Of a stretch of DNA of 64,000 nt, positions 18,794 to 35,079 are shown one piece after another. The notes under the pieces were generated by a model. It saw only the letters and a program-made list of their open reading frames with translations, was not told where the DNA came from and made no database searches. The translations under genes and the position numbers were made by a program. Location: positions 3,552,001-3,616,000 of the forward strand of contig CAWAIF010000003.1 in assembly GCA_963782055.1 (NCBI GenBank), written 5' to 3'. Each line of letters opens with the position of its first letter. Within the stretch, counting starts at the first letter, position 1. Source of the DNA: an uncultured delta proteobacterium. Its GTDB lineage: Bacteria; Myxococcota_A; Polyangia; Polyangiales; Polyangiaceae.

Positions 18794-19654
18794 ATGCGAA
18801 CCACGGCCGTCCTTCTGGGACTCACCCTCGTCCTCGCCGCCGCCCCTGCCCTCGCCGACGACAAGGCCGACTGCGTCCACGCGTCGGAGAAGGCGCAGGC
18901 GCTGGGGGACCAGGGCAAGCTCACGCAGGCTCGCGAACAGCTGCTGGTGTGTGGCCGGGACGTGTGCCCGGGCCCCGTCAAGAAGGACTGCGCCGAGCAG
19001 CTCGACACGGTCACGCGCCGCATCCCGACGGTGGTGGTGCAGGCGAAGGCCCCGTCGGGCAACGACGCCATCGCGGTGACGGTCACGATCGACGGCAAGG
19101 TGGTCGCCACGCAGCTCGACGGCAAGGCCATCCCGCTGGACCCGGGGGTGCACGAGTTCCACTTCGAGATGGTGGGCGCGCCGGCCGTCGACCAGCGCAT
19201 CGTCGTCGCGGAGGGCAAGCAGAACCGCCCCATCGTGGTCACCTTCGGCAGCCACTCCCCGCACGGCGGCGAGACGCCGCACCCCGCGCCTGCCGGCAAG
19301 GGCCTGCCGGTGGTGGGCCTCGTCGTCGGCGGCCTGGGCGTGATCGCCGGGGCGGTCGTCGCCCCCATCTTCTGGACGCTCGGACTGGACGAGAAGAGCG
19401 GCTACGAGAGCGGTCCCGACCAGTGCGCGCCCAACTGCACCAGCGATCAGAAGAGCTCAGTGGAGACCAAGCTGGTGGTGGGCGACATCTTCCTCGGCGT
19501 GGGCGTGGCGGCGGTCATCACCGGCGCGATCATGGTCATCGCCCACTACGCCGGCGGCTCGCCCGCGCCGAAGGCGACCGGCGCGCTCCAGCCCTTCTTC
19601 GATGCCGGGCCGATCCGCGGCGGCGGCTACGCGTCCGCGGGCCTGCACTTCTGA
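18794..19654 (+). CDS. Secreted/membrane hypothetical protein (PEGA-like), partner of the upstream kinase
   Basis: Signal peptide; Cys-containing helical N-domain; LDPGVH beta domain; C-terminal TM hairpin. Confidence 0.6.
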   Translation: MRTTAVLLGLTLVLAAAPALADDKADCVHASEKAQALGDQGKLTQAREQLLVCGRDVCPGPVKKDCAEQLDTVTRRIPTVVVQAKAPSGNDAIAVTVTIDGKVVATQLDGKAIPLDPGVHEFHFEMVGAPAVDQRIVVAEGKQNRPIVVTFGSHSPHGGETPHPAPAGKGLPVVGLVVGGLGVIAGAVVAPIFWTLGLDEKSGYESGPDQCAPNCTSDQKSSVETKLVVGDIFLGVGVAAVITGAIMVIAHYAGGSPAPKATGALQPFFDAGPIRGGGYASAGLHF

Positions 19655-19696
19655 GCGCCCCATGACGCGCGGCGTCCGGCGTGCTACGGGGCGCGC

Positions 19697-21258
<1,562 letters not shown>

Positions 21259-21259
<1 letters not shown>

Positions 21260-21570
21260 TGCGGCGCGCGGCCCTCCTCTTCGCACTCGCCTTGCCGCTC
21301 GGGACCGCCGGGTGCCCGCCGCCGGCGGAGAGCCCCCCGACGGTCTCGCTGCGCATGACCGGCAGCCCGCCGGACGCCCGGGTGATCATCGACGACGAGT
21401 TCGTCGGCCCGCTCGACGTCGTCGTCGCCCGCGGGGTGGCGCTGCCGCCCGGGCAGCATCGCATCTCGGTGGAGGCGCCGGGCTACTTCCCCTTCGACAC
21501 CATCGTGGTCGCCAAGGAGGGGGAGCGCCTGATCCGCGTGCAGGCCAGGCTGATGGCCGTGCCGGAGTGA
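21259..21570 (+). CDS. PEGA-domain lipoprotein
   Basis: TAGC lipobox; PPDARVIIDDEFVG...LPPGQHRISVEAPGY. Confidence 0.7.
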
Positions 21571-21585
21571 TGCTACGCTCGGAGG

Positions 21586-21978
21586 ATGGACTTTCTTCGC
21601 CTGCTCGGCAGCTTCGCCTTCGGCGCGCTCGTGCTCGCCGCGTGCGGTGGCGACACCTTCTCCTCGAGCGCTGACGGCGGCACCGACGACGGCGGCCGCT
21701 GCGACTACACCGACCGGCGCGGGCCCGTCACCAAGGGGTGCACGGGCGACACCAGCTGCGCGGTGGTGATGCACGCCGAGAGCTGCTGTCAGGTTCGCGC
21801 TCTGGGCATCAACCACGCCTTCGTGACCGACTTCAACGCCGCCGAGAAGGCCAGCACCTCCGGCTGCGTGTGCAACACCGGCTGCAACGCCCAGCCGGTG
21901 GACGAGCAGAACATGCCCGGGACGAACTTCGAGGCCAAGTGCGAGAACGGCGTCTGCGTGTCCCGGGTGGTCAACTAG
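21586..21978 (+). CDS. Cys-rich lipoprotein
   Basis: GGAGG RBS; LAAC lipobox; multiple Cys in the mature region. Confidence 0.65.
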   Translation: MDFLRLLGSFAFGALVLAACGGDTFSSSADGGTDDGGRCDYTDRRGPVTKGCTGDTSCAVVMHAESCCQVRALGINHAFVTDFNAAEKASTSGCVCNTGCNAQPVDEQNMPGTNFEAKCENGVCVSRVVN

Positions 21979-22037
21979 CCGGGCCAGGGCGGACGAGCTT
22001 GACGGGCGCGGCGTTTTGGAGCACATATCCCGCCCCC

Positions 22038-22196
22038 ATGTCGAACCGCGCCATCTGGAACGTACGCAAGCGCCACGAGTGGCTCGCCACCCCCCTCAAG
22101 TCCAAGCGCATCAAGCGCGCCACGCGCCTGCGCTGCGGCCTGCAGGACGCCATGGACCGCAAGGCCCTCGTCGCCGCCCGGCACGAGAAGGGCTGA
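22038..22196 (+). CDS. Small, very basic protein (52 aa)
   Basis: MSNRAIWNVRKRHEWLATPLKSKRIKRATRLRCGLQDAMDRKALVAARHEKG; GC-rich third positions; TTGACG box about 35 nt upstream. Confidence 0.6.
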   Translation: MSNRAIWNVRKRHEWLATPLKSKRIKRATRLRCGLQDAMDRKALVAARHEKG

Positions 22197-22199
22197 GCC

Positions 22200-23117
22200 T
22201 CAGTAGCCGCTCTGCGGCTCGGTCCAGCCGTCCGCCATCGCCGCCCAGGACATGGTCACGGTCGAGCGGGCGAACGCGAGCCGTCCCGCCGCGTCCACCA
22301 GGATGAGCCCGCCCGGGCTGCCGGTGCGGTCGAGCATCATCTGGATGGCCGCGCGCGCCGCCTCCTCGGGGTGCAGCGCCTGGCGCATCCACTCCACCGC
22401 GGCCTTGCCGAGACACACGCGCATGATGGCCTCCCCCACGCCCGTCGCCGACACCGCGCCGGCCTGGTCGTCGGCGTAGGTCCCCGCGCCGAGCACCGGG
22501 GTGTCGCCCACACGGCCCGCGCGCTTGAAGAAGGTGCCGCCGGTGCTGGTGGCCGACGCGACCCCGCCGCGCGCGTCTCGCGCCACCGCCCCCACCGTGC
22601 CGCCCGCCCAGCCGTGGGCTGGGGCGTCCCTGTCGCGCTCGAAGCGCTCGCGCACGCGCGGGGGGATCATCGCCGCCTCGTCGGCGCGCACGAAGCCGTG
22701 CTCCAGGGCGAAGCGCTCCGCGCCCTGCCCCGCGTAGAGGACGTGGGCGCCGTCGTCCAGCGCCGCCCGCGCGATGGTGATGGGATGGAGAAAGGGCGGG
22801 AGCGCGCACACCGCCCCCGCGCGCAGTCCCGTACCCTCCATCACCGCGGCGTCCAGCTCGACGTGGCCGTCGCGCGTGAGGGCCGCGCCGGTGCCGGCGT
22901 TGAAGCGCGGATCGTCCTCCAGCACCTCCACCGCGCGCTGGGCCGCGTCGAGCGCGCTCCCGCCGCGGGCGAGCAGCTCACCCCCGGCGCGCACGGCGGC
23001 GGCGCACCCCCCGGCATGCAGCACGCGCGAGGCCTCCGGCACGTTGCCCGCCCCGCCGTGCACGAGGATGGACCAGCCGGTGACCTCCAAGCCGCGCGAG
23101 GCGGTCAGCTTGTCCAT
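22200..23117 (-). CDS. iaaA: Isoaspartyl peptidase / L-asparaginase (Ntn hydrolase)
   Basis: VHGGAG, LEDDPRFNAG, ELDAAVM, GTVGAVARD, STGG, GRVGDTP, ATGVGE. Confidence 0.85.
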   Translation of the reverse strand: MDKLTASRGLEVTGWSILVHGGAGNVPEASRVLHAGGCAAAVRAGGELLARGGSALDAAQRAVEVLEDDPRFNAGTGAALTRDGHVELDAAVMEGTGLRAGAVCALPPFLHPITIARAALDDGAHVLYAGQGAERFALEHGFVRADEAAMIPPRVRERFERDRDAPAHGWAGGTVGAVARDARGGVASATSTGGTFFKRAGRVGDTPVLGAGTYADDQAGAVSATGVGEAIMRVCLGKAAVEWMRQALHPEEAARAAIQMMLDRTGSPGGLILVDAAGRLAFARSTVTMSWAAMADGWTEPQSGY

Positions 23118-23851
23118 GCCGGAGCACGATAGCGAATCGCCGCGACGCCGAGGAGCGCAAGCAGCGGCAGCGTGGCGAGCCAGGCCGGGGCGCCGCCCGC
23201 GGCGGCGGCGTGCAGGAGCACGATGCAGGCGCCAGCGGCGAGCCCGGCGGCCCCGATCGCCCGGCCCGCCCTCTCGAAGGCGGCGCGGGCGCCGAGCGCC
23301 GGCAGGGCGAGCGCGGCGAGCGCGACGACGAGCGCCGCCGAGGCGCGCCCCCCGGCAGGCAGCGGGGCCGACGGGATCGCCGCCGCCGCGACGCGCGAGA
23401 GCGTGCCGTCCTCGTCGATCCGCACGCCGCGCGAGCGGTCCACGAAGCCGGCGTCCTGCGCGACGACGTCGTCGGAGACGACACGCGGGAAGAAGGTGCT
23501 CACGTCCGCGCCGGACGGCACCGCGAGCACCGCCGCCGCGATCATGCCCGCGCACGCCCCGCCCGCCACCGCCGCTTGCGCGTTCTGGGCGAAGCTGCGG
23601 CCGATCGCGGCGAGGGCGAGCAGCTCGCCGCGACGCGCCGCCGTGCGCAGGGTCACGTACGTCGCCACCGCACCGCAGAGCGGGAGCACCGGCACCGCGC
23701 GCGCCACGCGCGTCGCCCACGCCACCCCCCCCTCGTCGGTCGCCCCGGAGGCCAGGCACGTCACCACGAAGAGCGCGGCCGCGAGTCCCAGCGCGCGGGC
23801 GAAGACGCGCACGTCCCACGCGGTGAGGACCGGGGCGGCGCGCGCGGGCAT
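23105..23851 (-). CDS. Hypothetical membrane protein, possibly LptF/LptG-related
   Basis: Several TM helices; RRGELLALAAIG resembles the LptF/G E-x-x-A-x-x-A-x-G motif. Confidence 0.45.
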   Translation of the reverse strand: MPARAAPVLTAWDVRVFARALGLAAALFVVTCLASGATDEGGVAWATRVARAVPVLPLCGAVATYVTLRTAARRGELLALAAIGRSFAQNAQAAVAGGACAGMIAAAVLAVPSGADVSTFFPRVVSDDVVAQDAGFVDRSRGVRIDEDGTLSRVAAAAIPSAPLPAGGRASAALVVALAALALPALGARAAFERAGRAIGAAGLAAGACIVLLHAAAAGGAPAWLATLPLLALLGVAAIRYRAPAWTS

Positions 23852-24243
23852 GGCCCAGGATGCCGCGTTTCGCGGGGGCTTGGGTAGCGGTTCCAGCTCA
23901 GCCGGTCGCGGGCGGCCCTTTCAGGTTGTCGCGGGACGGTCGTCGGTGTGCAGGATGGCACCCGGACCGTCGCTCCGAAGCTCTCCGCCCGCCTCGTGGC
24001 GCGGGCTCCGGGTCGTGTTACATTCGAAGCATGACGCCGAGCGCGGGCAGCTGCGAACCAGCTCCCGGAATGGTCCGGCAGGGAGATTGCCTCGTCGAGC
24101 TCCGGCTCGAAGGCGCACCTCCACGCGCGCGCGGCGACGGCAAGGCGCGGGCTCCCAACCCGCGGCCCATGAAGGAAACGCTCGTGGAGGCGGTCGCGAT
24201 CTTCGAGGCCGACCCCCGAGTGCCGGCGCGTCCGGAGGAGGTA

Positions 24244-24249
24244 TACAAT
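24244..24249 (+). promoter_or_regulatory. Probable -10 box (TACAAT) of the ncRNA candidate
   Basis: Near-consensus TACAAT in a locally AT-rich patch about 12 nt before the structured region; -35 is weak. Confidence 0.5.
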
Positions 24250-24260
24250 CATGCATAGTA

Positions 24261-24501
24261 CCCGTGGCCCCAACCTGGATGGGCTGACGCCGTAGCTCGT
24301 GTGCGTGTCCGGTTCGCGTCCCTCTCGAGAGGGCGCGAGACCTCCCTCCGTGTGAACGAAGGTGGTCGAGCGGTCCGCAGAGCGCGGACCCTCTCGGACG
24401 TGCGTACGGCCCCGGGGTTCCATGAGGTTGCCGGGCACCGAGCCCGGCGTTCGGCCTCATGCAACCGGGTGGCCTGGTCGGCTTCCAGTTAGGTGGCCGG
24501 G
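24261..24501 (+). ncRNA. Unassigned multi-branched structured RNA candidate
   Basis: 5' and 3' ends are complementary; nested helices with G-U pairs favouring the + strand; GUGA GNRA tetraloop; upstream -10 and downstream terminator. Confidence 0.55.
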
Positions 24502-24543
24502 ATGGCCCGGGTGGCGCTCGTCACCCGGGCCATTCTTTATTTT
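24502..24543 (+). terminator. Intrinsic terminator
   Basis: ATGGCCCGGGTGGC-GCTC-GTCACCCGGGCCAT hairpin followed by TCTTTATTTT. Confidence 0.75.
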
Positions 24544-25891
24544 GTGGCGGGCGAGGGGGCGCCGAAGTACCCCTAGCGTTGCTCTGCGGGACTAACTCAG
24601 TTGGTAGAGTGCCAGCTTCCCAAGCTGGATGTCGCGGGTTCGAATCCCGTGTCCCGCTCATAGTTTCATGTACTTGGGCGCCGTTCGGACGTTTCCCGGA
24701 CGATTCGTTTCCGCCACCTCCCGCACCGCCAGCGTCGGGCGCGATGAGCGATGCCGGCAGCGGGCCGAAGGGCTGGCCAACGTCGCCGTGCCCCACCGCT
24801 TCCGCTTCGGCGATGTAGCGCTGCGTGGTCGCCGTGTCCGCGTGTCCGAGTCGCGTTTGGATCTGCAGCTCGCGCGCGCCCCCAATCGCAAGCCACGTTG
24901 CGAACGTGTGGCGCAGGTCGTGGAAGCTCAGGGGGCGCCGGTGCTCGTCGGCGGCGTGTAGCTCCTGGCGCGTCACCTTGGCGAGCTCCAGGTGCTCGCG
25001 CATCCGGCCGGCGCGGGTCGCTGTCTTCTCGTTCGCAGGCGTCTCGAGCAACGTCGCTTCCGCGTCGCGCCCTTCGACGAGCGCCTCGAGCAGCGGAAGG
25101 AGGTTCGGCTCGATGGGGACGCGGCGAGCCTTCCGCCCCTTGGTGCTCTTGGTGCCCCCCGTCGCCCGATCGTGGGCGTGGTGCACGCTGATGTAGCCAC
25201 CGTCCAGGACGACGGCGCCGACGCGCAGCACGGCGAGCTCGCCCCGGCGTAGGCCAGTGTAGAGCGCCAGCGCGTAGAGCACGCGGGCCGATCGCGGCAC
25301 GTCTTCGCAGGCCAGGAGCTTCGCGGCCTCACGAGGGAACAGGTAGGCCGACTGCCGCTCTTCCCCAGCGTCCGGGCCTCGCACGCCGTCGACGGGGTTG
25401 CGCTCGAGCACGCGCAGCTCGAGCCGCTTGGAGTGCGTCGCATCGTCGAACATCTTCGAGAGGGTGCCGAAGACGTTGGCGGCCGTCTTCGCGGCGATCT
25501 CCCCTGCCCTGACTCGTTCGTCGAGGCGAGCCACGACGCGTTCCACGTCCTCGCGCGACACCGCCGTCATGACCAGATCCCGCATGATCGGCAGGATGTG
25601 GAATCGCAGGTGCGCGCTCGCGTCCTTGGGATCGCGCCGAGTCTTGAGCCACTTTTCGGTCCACACGTCGACGGTGTTCCCCGTCAGGGCCCCCCGCTTC
25701 GGCTCCGGGAGCTTCTCCCAGCCTTCCGCTTCCGCCTGCCTCGTGAGCCGCACCGCTTCGGCCCGCGCGTCCTGCTCGGACACGCCCACGGACAAGCACA
25801 CGCTGTTGCCGCGCGAGCCGTCCGGCAACGTGACGCGTATGTCCCAGTGGTTCCCGTGCCAGAAGGCGGAGCCCGTGCGGGTGCGCGGCAT
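24521..25891 (-). CDS. Tyrosine recombinase (integrase); integrated-state form reading through attL and antisense to tRNA-Gly
   Basis: YTGLRRGEL, STKGRK, FHDLRHTFA, RLGH, TTQRY catalytic motifs. Confidence 0.92.
   Translation of the reverse strand: MPRTRTGSAFWHGNHWDIRVTLPDGSRGNSVCLSVGVSEQDARAEAVRLTRQAEAEGWEKLPEPKRGALTGNTVDVWTEKWLKTRRDPKDASAHLRFHILPIMRDLVMTAVSREDVERVVARLDERVRAGEIAAKTAANVFGTLSKMFDDATHSKRLELRVLERNPVDGVRGPDAGEERQSAYLFPREAAKLLACEDVPRSARVLYALALYTGLRRGELAVLRVGAVVLDGGYISVHHAHDRATGGTKSTKGRKARRVPIEPNLLPLLEALVEGRDAEATLLETPANEKTATRAGRMREHLELAKVTRQELHAADEHRRPLSFHDLRHTFATWLAIGGARELQIQTRLGHADTATTQRYIAEAEAVGHGDVGQPFGPLPASLIAPDAGGAGGGGNESSGKRPNGAQVHETMSGTRDSNPRHPAWEAGTLPTELVPQSNARGTSAPPRPPQNKEWPG
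24586..24658 (+). tRNA. tRNA-Gly (anticodon CCC); CCA not encoded
   Basis: GCGGGAC/GTCCCGC acceptor stem; ACTC-AGTTGGTA-GAGT D arm; CCAGC-TTCCCAA-GCTGG anticodon arm; GCGGG-TTCGAAT-CCCGT T arm. Confidence 0.97.
24639..24659 (+). repeat. attL core (21 bp, 3' end of tRNA-Gly)
   Basis: TTCGAATCCCGTGTCCCGCTC, identical at 35059..35079. Confidence 0.92.
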
Positions 25892-25894
25892 GGC

Positions 25895-26173
25895 CTACGC
25901 CTTCCCTTCCGCCGCCGCGTGCGGCTCGCCTTGGTGGGCGGCGCACTCGGCGCACCGGCCCGCGTCGTCACTCTCGCTAGCGTGCGTGGCGGCGCCGCAG
26001 CCGGGGCAGCGGTCCAGGTCGAAGGTGCGCCCGCTCGCCACGTCCTCGCGGAGTGAGGCAAGCAAGACGCGCATCGGCGCCAGCGCGGGCGCCTCGGCCA
26101 GCGCGGCGATCGTCGCGTCAAGGACGGCCAGCACCCGAGCGCGCTCCTGACGCACGGCCTCGCGGGCGTTCAC
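25895..26173 (-). CDS. Hypothetical protein with CxxC...CxxC zinc-finger-like motif
   Basis: CPGCG...CAEC; GTGA-coupled to the upstream RHH ORF and directly before int. Confidence 0.55.
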   Translation of the reverse strand: MNAREAVRQERARVLAVLDATIAALAEAPALAPMRVLLASLREDVASGRTFDLDRCPGCGAATHASESDDAGRCAECAAHQGEPHAAAEGKA

Positions 26174-26367
26174 TTCCGCCCCCGGCGCTTCGCGGGCTTC
26201 GCCGTGGGCTCCACCACGATTCCGAGCGCGCGGGCCTCACGCGCGACAAGCGAGCGAATGAGCCCCGCGGCGCTCAGGCTGGACGCATCGGCCACGGCGT
26301 CGAGCTTGGCGCGGTCGAGCGGCGAAAGGCGGATCTGGAACGTGGTCTCTTTCAGGTTCGGGTCCAT
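26170..26367 (-). CDS. Ribbon-helix-helix (CopG-like) DNA-binding protein, 65 aa
   Basis: AGGAGA RBS before ATG at 26367; TTFQIRLSPLDRAKLDAVA...LSAAGLIRSLV pattern. Confidence 0.65.
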   Translation of the reverse strand: MDPNLKETTFQIRLSPLDRAKLDAVADASSLSAAGLIRSLVAREARALGIVVEPTAKPAKRRGRK

Positions 26368-26628
26368 GGTGATTCTCCTACCTGAGACTGTACGTACATT
26401 CTCAGAAGAGTCAAGCCCCCCAAGCAGATCCCCCACCTCCACGCCCAGCGCCGAGGCGATGCGGGCGAGCCATTCGGCCGATGCGGCAACCTCGCCACGG
26501 CACACCCGGTAAAGCTGCGCGGTGCCCACGTTCGCCTTCGTGGCGAGCCGAAAAAGGCTCATGCCTCGCGCCTCCGCAAGTGCCCGGATGTTCCGCGCAA
26601 TTCGTTCCCGCATGCCTTGTCCGTCCAC
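26170..26628 (-). CDS. XRE-family HTH regulator, in frame with the RHH ORF with no stop between them
   Basis: IARNIRALAEARGMSLFRLATKANVGTAQLYRVCRG...WLARIASALGVEVGDLL. Confidence 0.65.
   Translation of the reverse strand: MDGQGMRERIARNIRALAEARGMSLFRLATKANVGTAQLYRVCRGEVAASAEWLARIASALGVEVGDLLGGLDSSENVRTVSGRRITMDPNLKETTFQIRLSPLDRAKLDAVADASSLSAAGLIRSLVAREARALGIVVEPTAKPAKRRGRK
26382..26405. promoter_or_regulatory. 24-bp operator-like palindrome overlapping a minus-strand sigma70-type promoter
   Basis: CTGAGA-c-TGTACGTACA-t-TCTCAG; on the minus strand TTGACT-N16-TACAGT then AGGAGA and ATG. Confidence 0.65.
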
Positions 26629-26750
26629 GCCCGAACGCTACCGCCCCTTGTCCGGCGGTTGTGGATGGTCGTACAAGATCACATAGGCTCGAAACGAAAC
26701 GGCCCGGCGAGGCGCAAACCTCCCGGGCCAGGCCACCAAGGAGATTACCC

Positions 26751-27083
26751 ATGGCGACGACAAGCAATGTGGACGTAGTGCGAGCGCTCGGCAAGCTGGA
26801 CGACGCGATCATCGACGGCAAGCGGCTCCTGCGGGCCGAACGCATCGGGCAGCTACGAGCCCTCGCGTACGAGGCGGTGGGCATGGCTCGCCACGACACG
26901 CGCACCGGCGAGGGCGTAGGCCCCGACGATGCGGACGTGGTGTTTTTGATGTACGGCCCCGAAGGGCTGGACATGGTGGAGCGCGACGTGTTCATCAGGC
27001 ACGCCAGGGCGGCGCTGGCGCCCCCGGTGCCCCTGTCCCCCTGCGACGTGGCCCGCGTCGCCCTGCGCCGGGTGCCGCGATGA
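26751..27083 (+). CDS. Hypothetical protein (110 aa), divergent cassette gene 1
   Basis: AAGGAG RBS before ATG at 26751; ATGA-coupled to the next ORF. Confidence 0.6.
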   Translation: MATTSNVDVVRALGKLDDAIIDGKRLLRAERIGQLRALAYEAVGMARHDTRTGEGVGPDDADVVFLMYGPEGLDMVERDVFIRHARAALAPPVPLSPCDVARVALRRVPR

Positions 27084-35058: not shown

Positions 35059-35079
35059 TTCGAATCCCGTGTCCCGCTC
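35059..35079 (+). repeat. attR core (21 bp)
   Basis: Exact copy of 24639..24659. Confidence 0.92.

What the first reader, a model, noticed from the sequence alone, without database searches (positions are those of the whole stretch)
24244..24543. Unassigned ~245-nt multi-branched ncRNA candidate upstream of tRNA-Gly
Seen: a TACAAT -10 box, then a region whose ends pair (CCC..GGCC CC AAC.TGGA..GGCTGAC at 24261-24288 with GTCGGCT TCCAGTT.GG.GGCCGGG at 24477-24501). Arm 1 (GCCGTA...GTGCGTGTCCG with CGGACGTGCGTACGGC) encloses three hairpins: 24314-24338, 24339-24367 (GUGA GNRA loop) and 24368-24393. Arm 2 (24411-24469) contains CATGAGG/CCTCATG and GCCGGGC/GCCCGGC. A strong terminator follows. Many G-U pairs favour the + strand and no credible ORF covers the region. 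I see no SRP, RNase P or tmRNA hallmarks, no 6S central bubble, and no downstream CDS for a riboswitch. Inference: a standalone structured RNA of unknown class.
Basis: partly seen in the sequence, partly recalled or inferred. Interest (0 to 1): 0.7.

Follow-up and report, generated by a model that had tools for sequence, protein, structure and literature searches.

The report
Abundant myxobacterial RNA with translated mini-gene
This is the back half of a roughly 500-base folded RNA, kept as a single copy in most of a large group of soil myxobacteria, that carries a strong ribosome landing site and a tiny 14-codon gene whose length, not whose peptide, is conserved, which suggests the ribosome itself is used to flip the RNA's shape.

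Summary
The folds are real, but the unit is twice as long and carries a reading frame. Soil RNA contigs cover exactly 24036-24530 with near-empty flanks, matching an extended -10 at 24016 and the terminator. Homologs, nearly always one per genome, occur in 119 of 150 Polyangiales genomes; no Rfam family matches. Conserved: covarying leader helices, the SD, the start (ATG 155, GTG 12) and an in-frame stop (TAG 86, TGA 58, TAA 23) after 12-24 codons in 165 of 167 complete loci; 84 of 87 independently found ORFs have exactly 14 codons. The peptide shows no frame-specific purifying selection (pN/pS about 0.8). In this RNA codons 1-5 are open and codons 6-13 pair with the strand before the terminator. 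Best reading (0.5): a standalone RNA switched by its own translation; translation and output are not shown. Rivals: micropeptide mRNA or dual-function sRNA; type I toxin-like locus with an antisense promoter. No look-alike found in earlier scan notes.

The parts
24016..24024 (+). Extended -10 promoter element (TG-n-TACATT); predicted start about 24031
   Evidence: One TGnTAnnnT per locus, 178-345 nt upstream of the AUG, in 64 of 94 Polyangiaceae loci; weak -35-like bias in 73 promoters; RNA contigs start at 24036-24039
24031..24545 (+). Whole transcript, about 510 nt
   Evidence: One 492-495 nt contig per run covering 24036/38/39-24530 at depth 8-33 in 4 of 4 soil metatranscriptome runs laid; the other 7 kb nearly empty. 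Strand inferred from promoter, SD and terminator, not from the contigs
24035..24136 (+). 5' four-way junction: P1 24035-47/24124-36, P2 24049-63, P3 24065-78 (loop AUGG), P4 24082-24122
   Evidence: P3 and P4 predicted by RNAalifold on 33 homologs, 8 of 10 pairs with compensatory changes; coordinates from a fold constrained on P3, P6, P7. P1 and P2 not tested by covariation
24174..24222 (+). Conserved GGAAA linker and helix P6 (base 24179-83/24218-22) with a variable top
   Evidence: 5 of 5 pairs in 108 of 113 loci anchored without using pairing; all Watson-Crick in 83 vs 22 in shuffles; 4 of 5 pairs change on both sides
24223..24235 (+). Hairpin P7 (CCGG/CCGG) abutting the SD
   Evidence: CCGG/CCGG in 138 of 141 loci, three compensatory variants, loop 4-8 nt
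24234..24241 (+). Strong Shine-Dalgarno GGAGGAGG
   Evidence: Near-invariant in alignment A2; 7-12 nt from the start, 9-10 nt in 79 of 94 loci, spacer sequence free
24244..24249 (+).
   Evidence: Not conserved; A>G at 24247 in the RNA runs and transcript begins upstream
24251..24295 (+). Mini-ORF, 14 codons, MHSTRGPNLDGLTP then TAG
   Evidence: Start, frame and stop kept in 165 of 167 complete loci (12-24 codons); 84 of 87 at 14 codons in a set chosen on the first four codons only. Translation itself not shown
24266..24498 (+).
   Evidence: Most pair probabilities 0.8-1.0 here, first 15 ORF nt open; own 3' strand pairs better than foreign ones in 104 of 121 loci, -24.8 vs -20.4 kcal/mol
24277..24283 (+). 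Position of a second, SD-like purine run before the stop (GGAGG in most homologs; degenerate GGAUGGG here)
   Evidence: GGAGG ending 4-11 nt before the last sense codon in 120 of 165 loci, but in only 32 of 87 ORFs of the unbiased set
24299..24407 (+). Variable arm 1 with three hairpins
   Evidence: Fold; not alignable to relatives
24408..24474 (+). Variable arm 2
   Evidence: Fold; reduced to a small loop in minimal homologs
24499..24545 (+). Intrinsic terminator
   Evidence: terminator called in 135 of 144 loci; RNA contigs end at 24530
24255..24260 (-). Candidate antisense -10 (TACTAT) inside codons 2-4; would start an antisense RNA across the SD
   Evidence: TAnnnT in this register in 94 of 168 loci vs 0 of 135 control gene starts; missing in f17 (0 of 6), f52 (0 of 3), f9 (1 of 11). 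No transcript evidence
24586..24659 (+). Neighbouring tRNA-Gly(CCC); separate gene
   Evidence: follows the element in only 24 of 144 loci

Best explanation
A standalone RNA of about 510 nt (261-639 nt in 59 homologs) that uses the ribosome as its switch. Shown: it is transcribed as one unit; it has covarying leader helices, a strong SD, an AU-rich open landing pad (codons 1-5) and a short ORF whose later codons are locked in a helix with the 3' end. Inferred: a ribosome loads on the open pad, has to unzip that helix to reach the stop, and ends at its top, where a second SD-like run may hold it; this frees the 3' strand and refolds the RNA. The RNA thus has two states set by ribosome activity. 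Speculative: the output is a change in its stability or partner binding, or the parking of ribosomes, serving as a read-out of translation capacity. The peptide is mostly a by-product.
For: Transcript ends match promoter and terminator. ATG/GTG and TAG/TGA/TAA interchange while frame and short length hold. Longer ORFs (16-24 codons) gain codons at the open 5' end and keep the GGAGG-to-stop spacing at 5, 8 or 11 nt. pN/pS 0.76-0.85, no lower than in the two wrong frames (0.68-0.80); Ser3 is AGT in 130 of 130. Codons 2-5 are 45% GC vs 66% in the leader. The helix begins at ORF nt +16 here, about where an initiating ribosome's footprint ends (established knowledge, recalled). Anti-SD pairing of -6 kcal/mol or better before the stop in 160 of 165 loci and 75 of 87 unbiased ORFs vs 695 of 2530 ordinary genes. 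No fixed downstream gene: 57 same-strand CDS, 26 convergent CDS, 24 tRNA-Gly of 144. No conserved restart codon near the stop (none in 118 of 165).
Against: No ribosome profiling, proteomics or probing; no output identified. pN/pS is a weak negative test because synonymous sites are under RNA constraint; Thr4 uses all four codons and Gly6 is kept in 132 of 155, so partial peptide function is possible. The internal GGAGG was part of my search models; in the unbiased set it is exact in only 32 of 87 at the usual spacing and it is degenerate in this genome. The own 5' half is no more stable than shuffles (z -0.07) and P3 appears in the minimum-energy fold of only 26 of 43 leaders. Averaged over 59 transcripts the landing pad is only partly open (unpaired 0.53 vs 0.29 for codons 6-12). 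The RNA evidence is contigs only, from two 2022 soil studies that may be one campaign, and X2 and X5 look like one data set; strand and level cannot be read.
Confidence: 0.5

Rival explanations
1. mRNA or dual-function sRNA for a working micropeptide: the 13-16 aa product (consensus M[QH]ST.G...[EK]G) is the output, fast-evolving because it co-evolves with a partner; the RNA structure meters its synthesis and may also base-pair in trans.
For: Strong SD, open start region and kept frame; M[QH]ST.G recurs in families f1, f3, f11, f15; Thr4 uses four synonymous codons; 14-15 aa functional peptides exist (peTrpL, SpfP; PMC12310071 Table 1).
Against: No frame-specific purifying selection; peptides of f7, f9, f17, f22, f52 share little; frameshifted versions of the 3' codons are tolerated; 11 longer peptides hit no NCBIfam model; no signal or hydrophobic segment (median GRAVY -0.72); the strand opposite GGAGG varies, so no conserved seed was seen.
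Confidence: 0.25
2. Type I toxin-antitoxin-like locus: a stable, long-range-paired mRNA repressed by a cis antisense RNA whose promoter lies in codons 2-4 and which covers the SD.
For: Antisense TAnnnT in fixed register in 94 of 168 loci vs 0 of 135 controls; mRNA size, long leader and long-distance pairing resemble type I toxin mRNAs (PMC8594479, PMC5668327 passages).
Against: Peptide 12-24 aa, hydrophilic and unconserved, against 20-60 aa mostly hydrophobic toxins; nearly always single copy, chromosomal, no real copy in viral or phage collections; the SD is not stably sequestered; antisense box missing in several families; only a 2-3 U run where an antisense RNA would end.
Confidence: 0.12
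3. A purely non-coding RNA (or the first reader's 245-nt processed RNA) in which SD, AUG and stop are incidental or only bind a protein.
For: Rich structure and abundance; ORF bases are constrained at nucleotide level.
Confidence: 0.07
4. Attenuator: the ORF is a leader peptide controlling read-through of the terminator into the next gene (here tRNA-Gly).
For: Order ORF, pairing strand, terminator is that of an attenuator; tRNA-Gly follows in 24 of 144 loci.
Against: Downstream gene differs and is convergent in 27 of 144 loci; no run of control codons; contigs stop at the terminator.
Confidence: 0.04

Closest known systems
Attenuator leader ORFs / uORF motifs (ilvB and fthC uORF candidates, PMC11109978 passages; mok in hok/sok, PMC5668327 passages)
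   Same: Short ORF with SD and kept start and stop inside a structured RNA, next to a terminator; translation is thought to refold the RNA
   Different: No consistent downstream or overlapping gene to control; 220-nt structured leader; accumulates as a standalone RNA
Dual-function sRNAs (S. aureus RNAIII 514 nt; Spot 42/SpfP 15 aa; rnTrpL/peTrpL 14 aa; PMC12310071, first part read)
   Same: Standalone RNA with a small ORF; similar size to RNAIII, whose 3' end is thought to hold back translation
   Different: No sequence match; peptide not under detectable selection; no base-pairing targets or conserved seed shown
Type I toxin mRNAs with a fully overlapped antisense RNA (AapA/IsoA, Hok/Sok; PMC8594479 passages)
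   Same: Size, long leader, long-distance pairing, possible antisense promoter near the ORF start
   Different: Peptide shorter, hydrophilic, unconserved; 3' strand pairs with the ORF, not mainly the SD; single vertical copy
Calicivirus TURBS termination-reinitiation elements (PMC5972666 passages)
   Same: An rRNA-complementary motif upstream of a stop, hidden in structure until translation opens it, proposed to tether the finishing ribosome
   Different: Bacterial anti-SD rather than 18S h26; no restart codon or second ORF conserved here
Pxr of Myxococcus xanthus (RF01812; PMC10217877, PMC8538405 passages)
   Same: Myxobacterial standalone regulatory RNA; could fill a related regulatory niche (speculation)
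   Different: No Rfam match; Pxr depends on a sigma54 regulator, arose in Cystobacterineae, and the paper text searched holds no mention of an ORF or peptide

Membership tests
Any Rfam 15 family | Covariance-model match at gathering score | tested here: not met
   None over 24031-24495 at E up to 10; none at gathering score in 10 diverse homolog loci
6S, RNase P, SRP, tmRNA | Is the genome's copy of that housekeeping RNA | tested here: not met
   Each found elsewhere in G000
Pxr sRNA | RF01812 match | tested here: not met
   No match in the region or in G000; that genome search had no positive control
Attenuator / uORF leader | Consistent same-strand downstream gene | tested here: not met
   57 same-strand CDS of many families, 26 convergent CDS, 25 tRNA, 27 none or short, 9 no terminator, of 144
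Attenuator / uORF leader | [quoted passage not shown] | tested here: met
Dual-function sRNA | ORF is translated | tested here: inconclusive
   Strong comparative signal; no ribosome or peptide data
Dual-function sRNA | Peptide has its own function | tested here: inconclusive
   pN/pS 0.76-0.85, not frame-specific; synonymous sites constrained, so the test is weak
Dual-function sRNA | Base-pairs with trans mRNA targets | not testable with these tools
   No interactome data for Polyangiales; no target scan run
Type I toxin-antitoxin | Toxin of 20-60 aa, mostly hydrophobic | tested here: not met
   14 aa here; 149 of 167 are 12-16 aa; median GRAVY -0.72, above 0.5 in 6 of 165
Type I toxin-antitoxin | Cis antisense RNA | tested here: inconclusive
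   Antisense -10-like box in 94 of 168; contigs give no strand
Type I toxin-antitoxin | SD sequestered by an anti-SD | tested here: inconclusive
   SD unpaired 0.42 on average, 0.23 paired with the 3' domain; only its first two G lie in P7
Type I toxin-antitoxin | Toxicity of the peptide | not testable with these tools
   Needs expression in the host
T-box / tRNA-sensing leader | Invariant UGGN for tRNA 3' end and T-box model match | tested here: not met
   P3 holds TGGT in 77 of 109 located hairpins, other loops lack it; no Rfam match. Defining motif recalled

The most novel reading that the evidence does not exclude
A new class of housekeeping-like bacterial RNA: an abundant, order-wide, standalone RNA built as a ribosome-operated device. 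It has a landing pad, a fixed-length run that unzips a lock helix and a second SD that parks the finishing ribosome, so that it senses or stores ribosomes, with no protein product or downstream gene as its purpose.
Probability: 0.35. Interest if true: 0.9.

Novelty: new variant of a known kind. Interest (0 to 1): 0.77.

Why it matters
An abundant, nearly always single-copy RNA kept across most Polyangiales (soil predators and natural-product producers) has no Rfam entry and was not found in my literature searches. Its design, with start, length and stop conserved but not the peptide and no gene downstream, separates the act of translation from its product more cleanly than attenuators or dual-function sRNAs do. 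It gives a direct test of whether bacteria use a standalone RNA to sense or hold ribosomes. Minimal homologs of about 260-300 nt suit probing and cryo-EM with ribosomes.

Tried and rejected
Plain DNA search finds only the core in close relatives; no second copy in G000. An upstream ORF read from 24031 changes frame between relatives (read by eye), so the leader is non-coding. Viral and phage collections: 8 and 10 pattern hits, none with the full architecture, and no blastn match. Eight weak R2 hits were dropped before counting (16S rRNA or ordinary genes: G461, G437, G450, G439, G445, G375 and the first hits of G325 and G396), and G366 was lost to a parser miss. Likeness of P7+SD to 16S helix 40 explains those chance hits; G000's own 16S differs there, so mimicry is not supported. 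Pairing of the C-rich stretch before P6 with the SD: 0.01. The 3' domain pairs about as well with the SD as with the ORF (-17.8 vs -17.4), uncontrolled, so not counted. Pxr searches rang nowhere (0 of 150, 0 of 123), so Myxococcus and its kin were probably not in the samples and remain untested. MAFFT could not align P1/P2 or the 3' helix. Ten literature searches listed no paper on this RNA; the supplement of PMC11109978 could not be read, and subscription papers such as the M. xanthus ncRNA survey were not seen.

Full report
Observation. Rfam has nothing over it at E up to 10. The genome's 6S, RNase P, SRP and tmRNA lie elsewhere. Named matches to the core motif are Polyangiaceae, Polyangiales, Byssovorax or unclassified deltaproteobacterial records, 14 in all.

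The unit is larger than reported. In the six same-genus genomes only query positions 6-48 or 10-72 matched, the very 5' edge of the finding. Eight soil metatranscriptome runs hold 51-55% of the sampled words of 23900-24700. I laid four of them on 19500-27000: each gave one 492-495 nt contig spanning 24036/38/39-24530 at depth 8-33 with a single difference (24247, inside TACAAT). The rest was empty except two short exact pieces at depth 2-3 in one run and short, less alike pieces, mostly over the tRNA. Contigs show neither strand nor level, X2 and X5 look like one data set, and the two studies may be one campaign.

Distribution. A covariance model of the core found exactly one match in 90 of 150 Polyangiaceae genomes, 61 of 89 genera. 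A refined model (R3) found it in 119 of 150 genomes of the order, in 17 of 20 families sampled; it was not found in f8 (0 of 3), f10 or f16 (0 of 1 each) and in 12 of 24 of f17 (one of the 119, G399, is unpublished and only counted). Outside the order I accept, after reading the DNA, G547 (same class) and four of 17 genomes of family f52 in another class; other phylum-level hits were chance. Of ten negative genomes retested with laxer filters, two were positive, one with two copies. Myxococcus is untested. No real copy turned up in viral or phage collections.

Structure. P6 forms 5 of 5 pairs in 108 of 113 loci anchored without using pairing, all Watson-Crick in 83 against a mean of 22 in shuffles; on 61 aligned sequences P6 and P7 are 100% paired, 5 of 9 pairs change on both sides and 0 of 500 shuffles reach this (relatedness inflates such tests). 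P7 is CCGG/CCGG in 138 of 141 loci. P3 and P4 of the 5' junction carry compensatory changes in 8 of 10 pairs (33 sequences). Against: the own 5' half is no more stable than shuffles (z -0.07 vs -5.27 for the 3' half). The ORF's later codons pair with the strand before the terminator: own partner better than the mean foreign one in 104 of 121 loci (loci without a terminator call and 15 doubtful or truncated ones left out).

The ORF. In 168 loci read (a subset of all hits; drops listed under Tried and rejected), 167 are complete and 165 of these have 12-24 codons, two have 41 and 45. Starts are ATG 155 and GTG 12; stops TAG 86, TGA 58, TAA 23. Yet pN/pS along a minimum spanning tree is 0.76-0.85, no lower than in the wrong frames, and Ser3 is AGT in 130 of 130. 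Codons 2-5 are AU-rich (45% GC, third positions 39%) and open in this RNA, with the helix starting at nt +16. Longer ORFs add codons in this open part and keep a purine run 5, 8 or 11 nt before the last codon. That run pairs with the genome's anti-SD at -6 kcal/mol or better in 160 of 165 loci and 75 of 87 unbiased ORFs, against 695 of 2530 ordinary gene ends; exact GGAGG at the usual spacing occurs in only 32 of 87 unbiased ORFs and is degenerate in this genome. No restart codon is conserved.

Context. Downstream of the terminator lie 57 same-strand CDS of many families, 26 convergent CDS, 24 tRNA-Gly(CCC), 1 inverted tRNA and 27 unclear cases; 9 loci had no terminator call (144 loci). This is a gene of its own, not a leader.

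Mechanism. Shown: one transcript, covarying helices, a conserved initiation site, frame and stop. Inferred: ribosomes load, unzip the ORF/3' helix and terminate at its top, so the RNA's fold depends on translation (0.5). The output is unknown; stability control, partner binding or ribosome parking are the options I favour. Rivals are a micropeptide mRNA or dual-function sRNA (0.25), a type I toxin-like locus (0.12, raised by an antisense TAnnnT in codons 2-4 in 94 of 168 loci vs 0 of 135 controls), a pure ncRNA (0.07) and an attenuator (0.04).

Comparison with the known. It works like an attenuator leader or mok in that translation would refold RNA, but it fails the downstream-gene test. It resembles RNAIII-type dual-function RNAs in size and layout, but neither function is shown. 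It resembles type I toxin mRNAs in layout but not in peptide. Papers seen: passages of PMC10217877, bioRxiv 10.1101/2025.09.11.675593, PMC5972666, PMC11109978 (supplement unreadable and may bear on novelty), PMC5668327, PMC8538405, PMC8594479, and part 1 of 6 of PMC12310071. Ten searches listed no description of this RNA; most subscription papers are outside the library. Ribosome footprint size and the T-box motif are recalled, not from a call. Five look-ups of earlier scan notes found no look-alike; two loosely worded notes were on unrelated elements.

Verdict. A real, transcribed, order-wide RNA family without an Rfam entry, twice the reported length and carrying a mini-ORF conserved in form rather than product. 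New variant of a known kind, with a 0.35 chance of being a new class; interest 0.77.

Noticed in passing
window 24639-24659 and 35059-35079: 21-nt direct repeat of the tRNA-Gly 3' end bounding a 10.4-kb integrated element with a tyrosine integrase (24521-25891 minus, Pfam Phage_integrase) and an HTH gene (26170-26628 minus).
   Followed up: partly
L170, L178, L207, L210, L216, L276: ychF (ribosome-associated ATPase) ends within 0.9 kb of the element in 6 loci of 5 families, in both orientations; a lower bound, as flanks were short. In G000 it lies about 314 kb away.
   Followed up: partly
many Polyangiaceae loci, e.g. L030, L066: An unannotated cysteine-bearing lipoprotein-like gene flanks the element in 50 neighbour calls, on either side and strand; no NCBIfam hit; in G000 it has moved to C3 about 124 kb.
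   Followed up: partly
window 24218-24241: P7 plus the SD resembles 16S rRNA helix 40; weak model hits in other families were 16S genes. G000's own 16S differs in the stem.
   Followed up: partly
L408 and L411 (G020): Two copies with near-identical cores and different 5' domains, a rare duplication.
   Followed up: no
L104 (G022) and L277 (G325): The only two long ORFs (45 and 41 codons); L104 has a stop one base out of frame at the usual place. Could be sequencing errors or relaxed copies.
   Followed up: no
L340 (metagenome contig, 1764 nt): Holds two different copies head to head plus 5S rRNA-like sequence; looks like a chimeric assembly.
   Followed up: no
window 23105-23851 minus: Membrane protein gene with no Pfam or NCBIfam hit, next to the element in 10 neighbour calls.
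   Followed up: no
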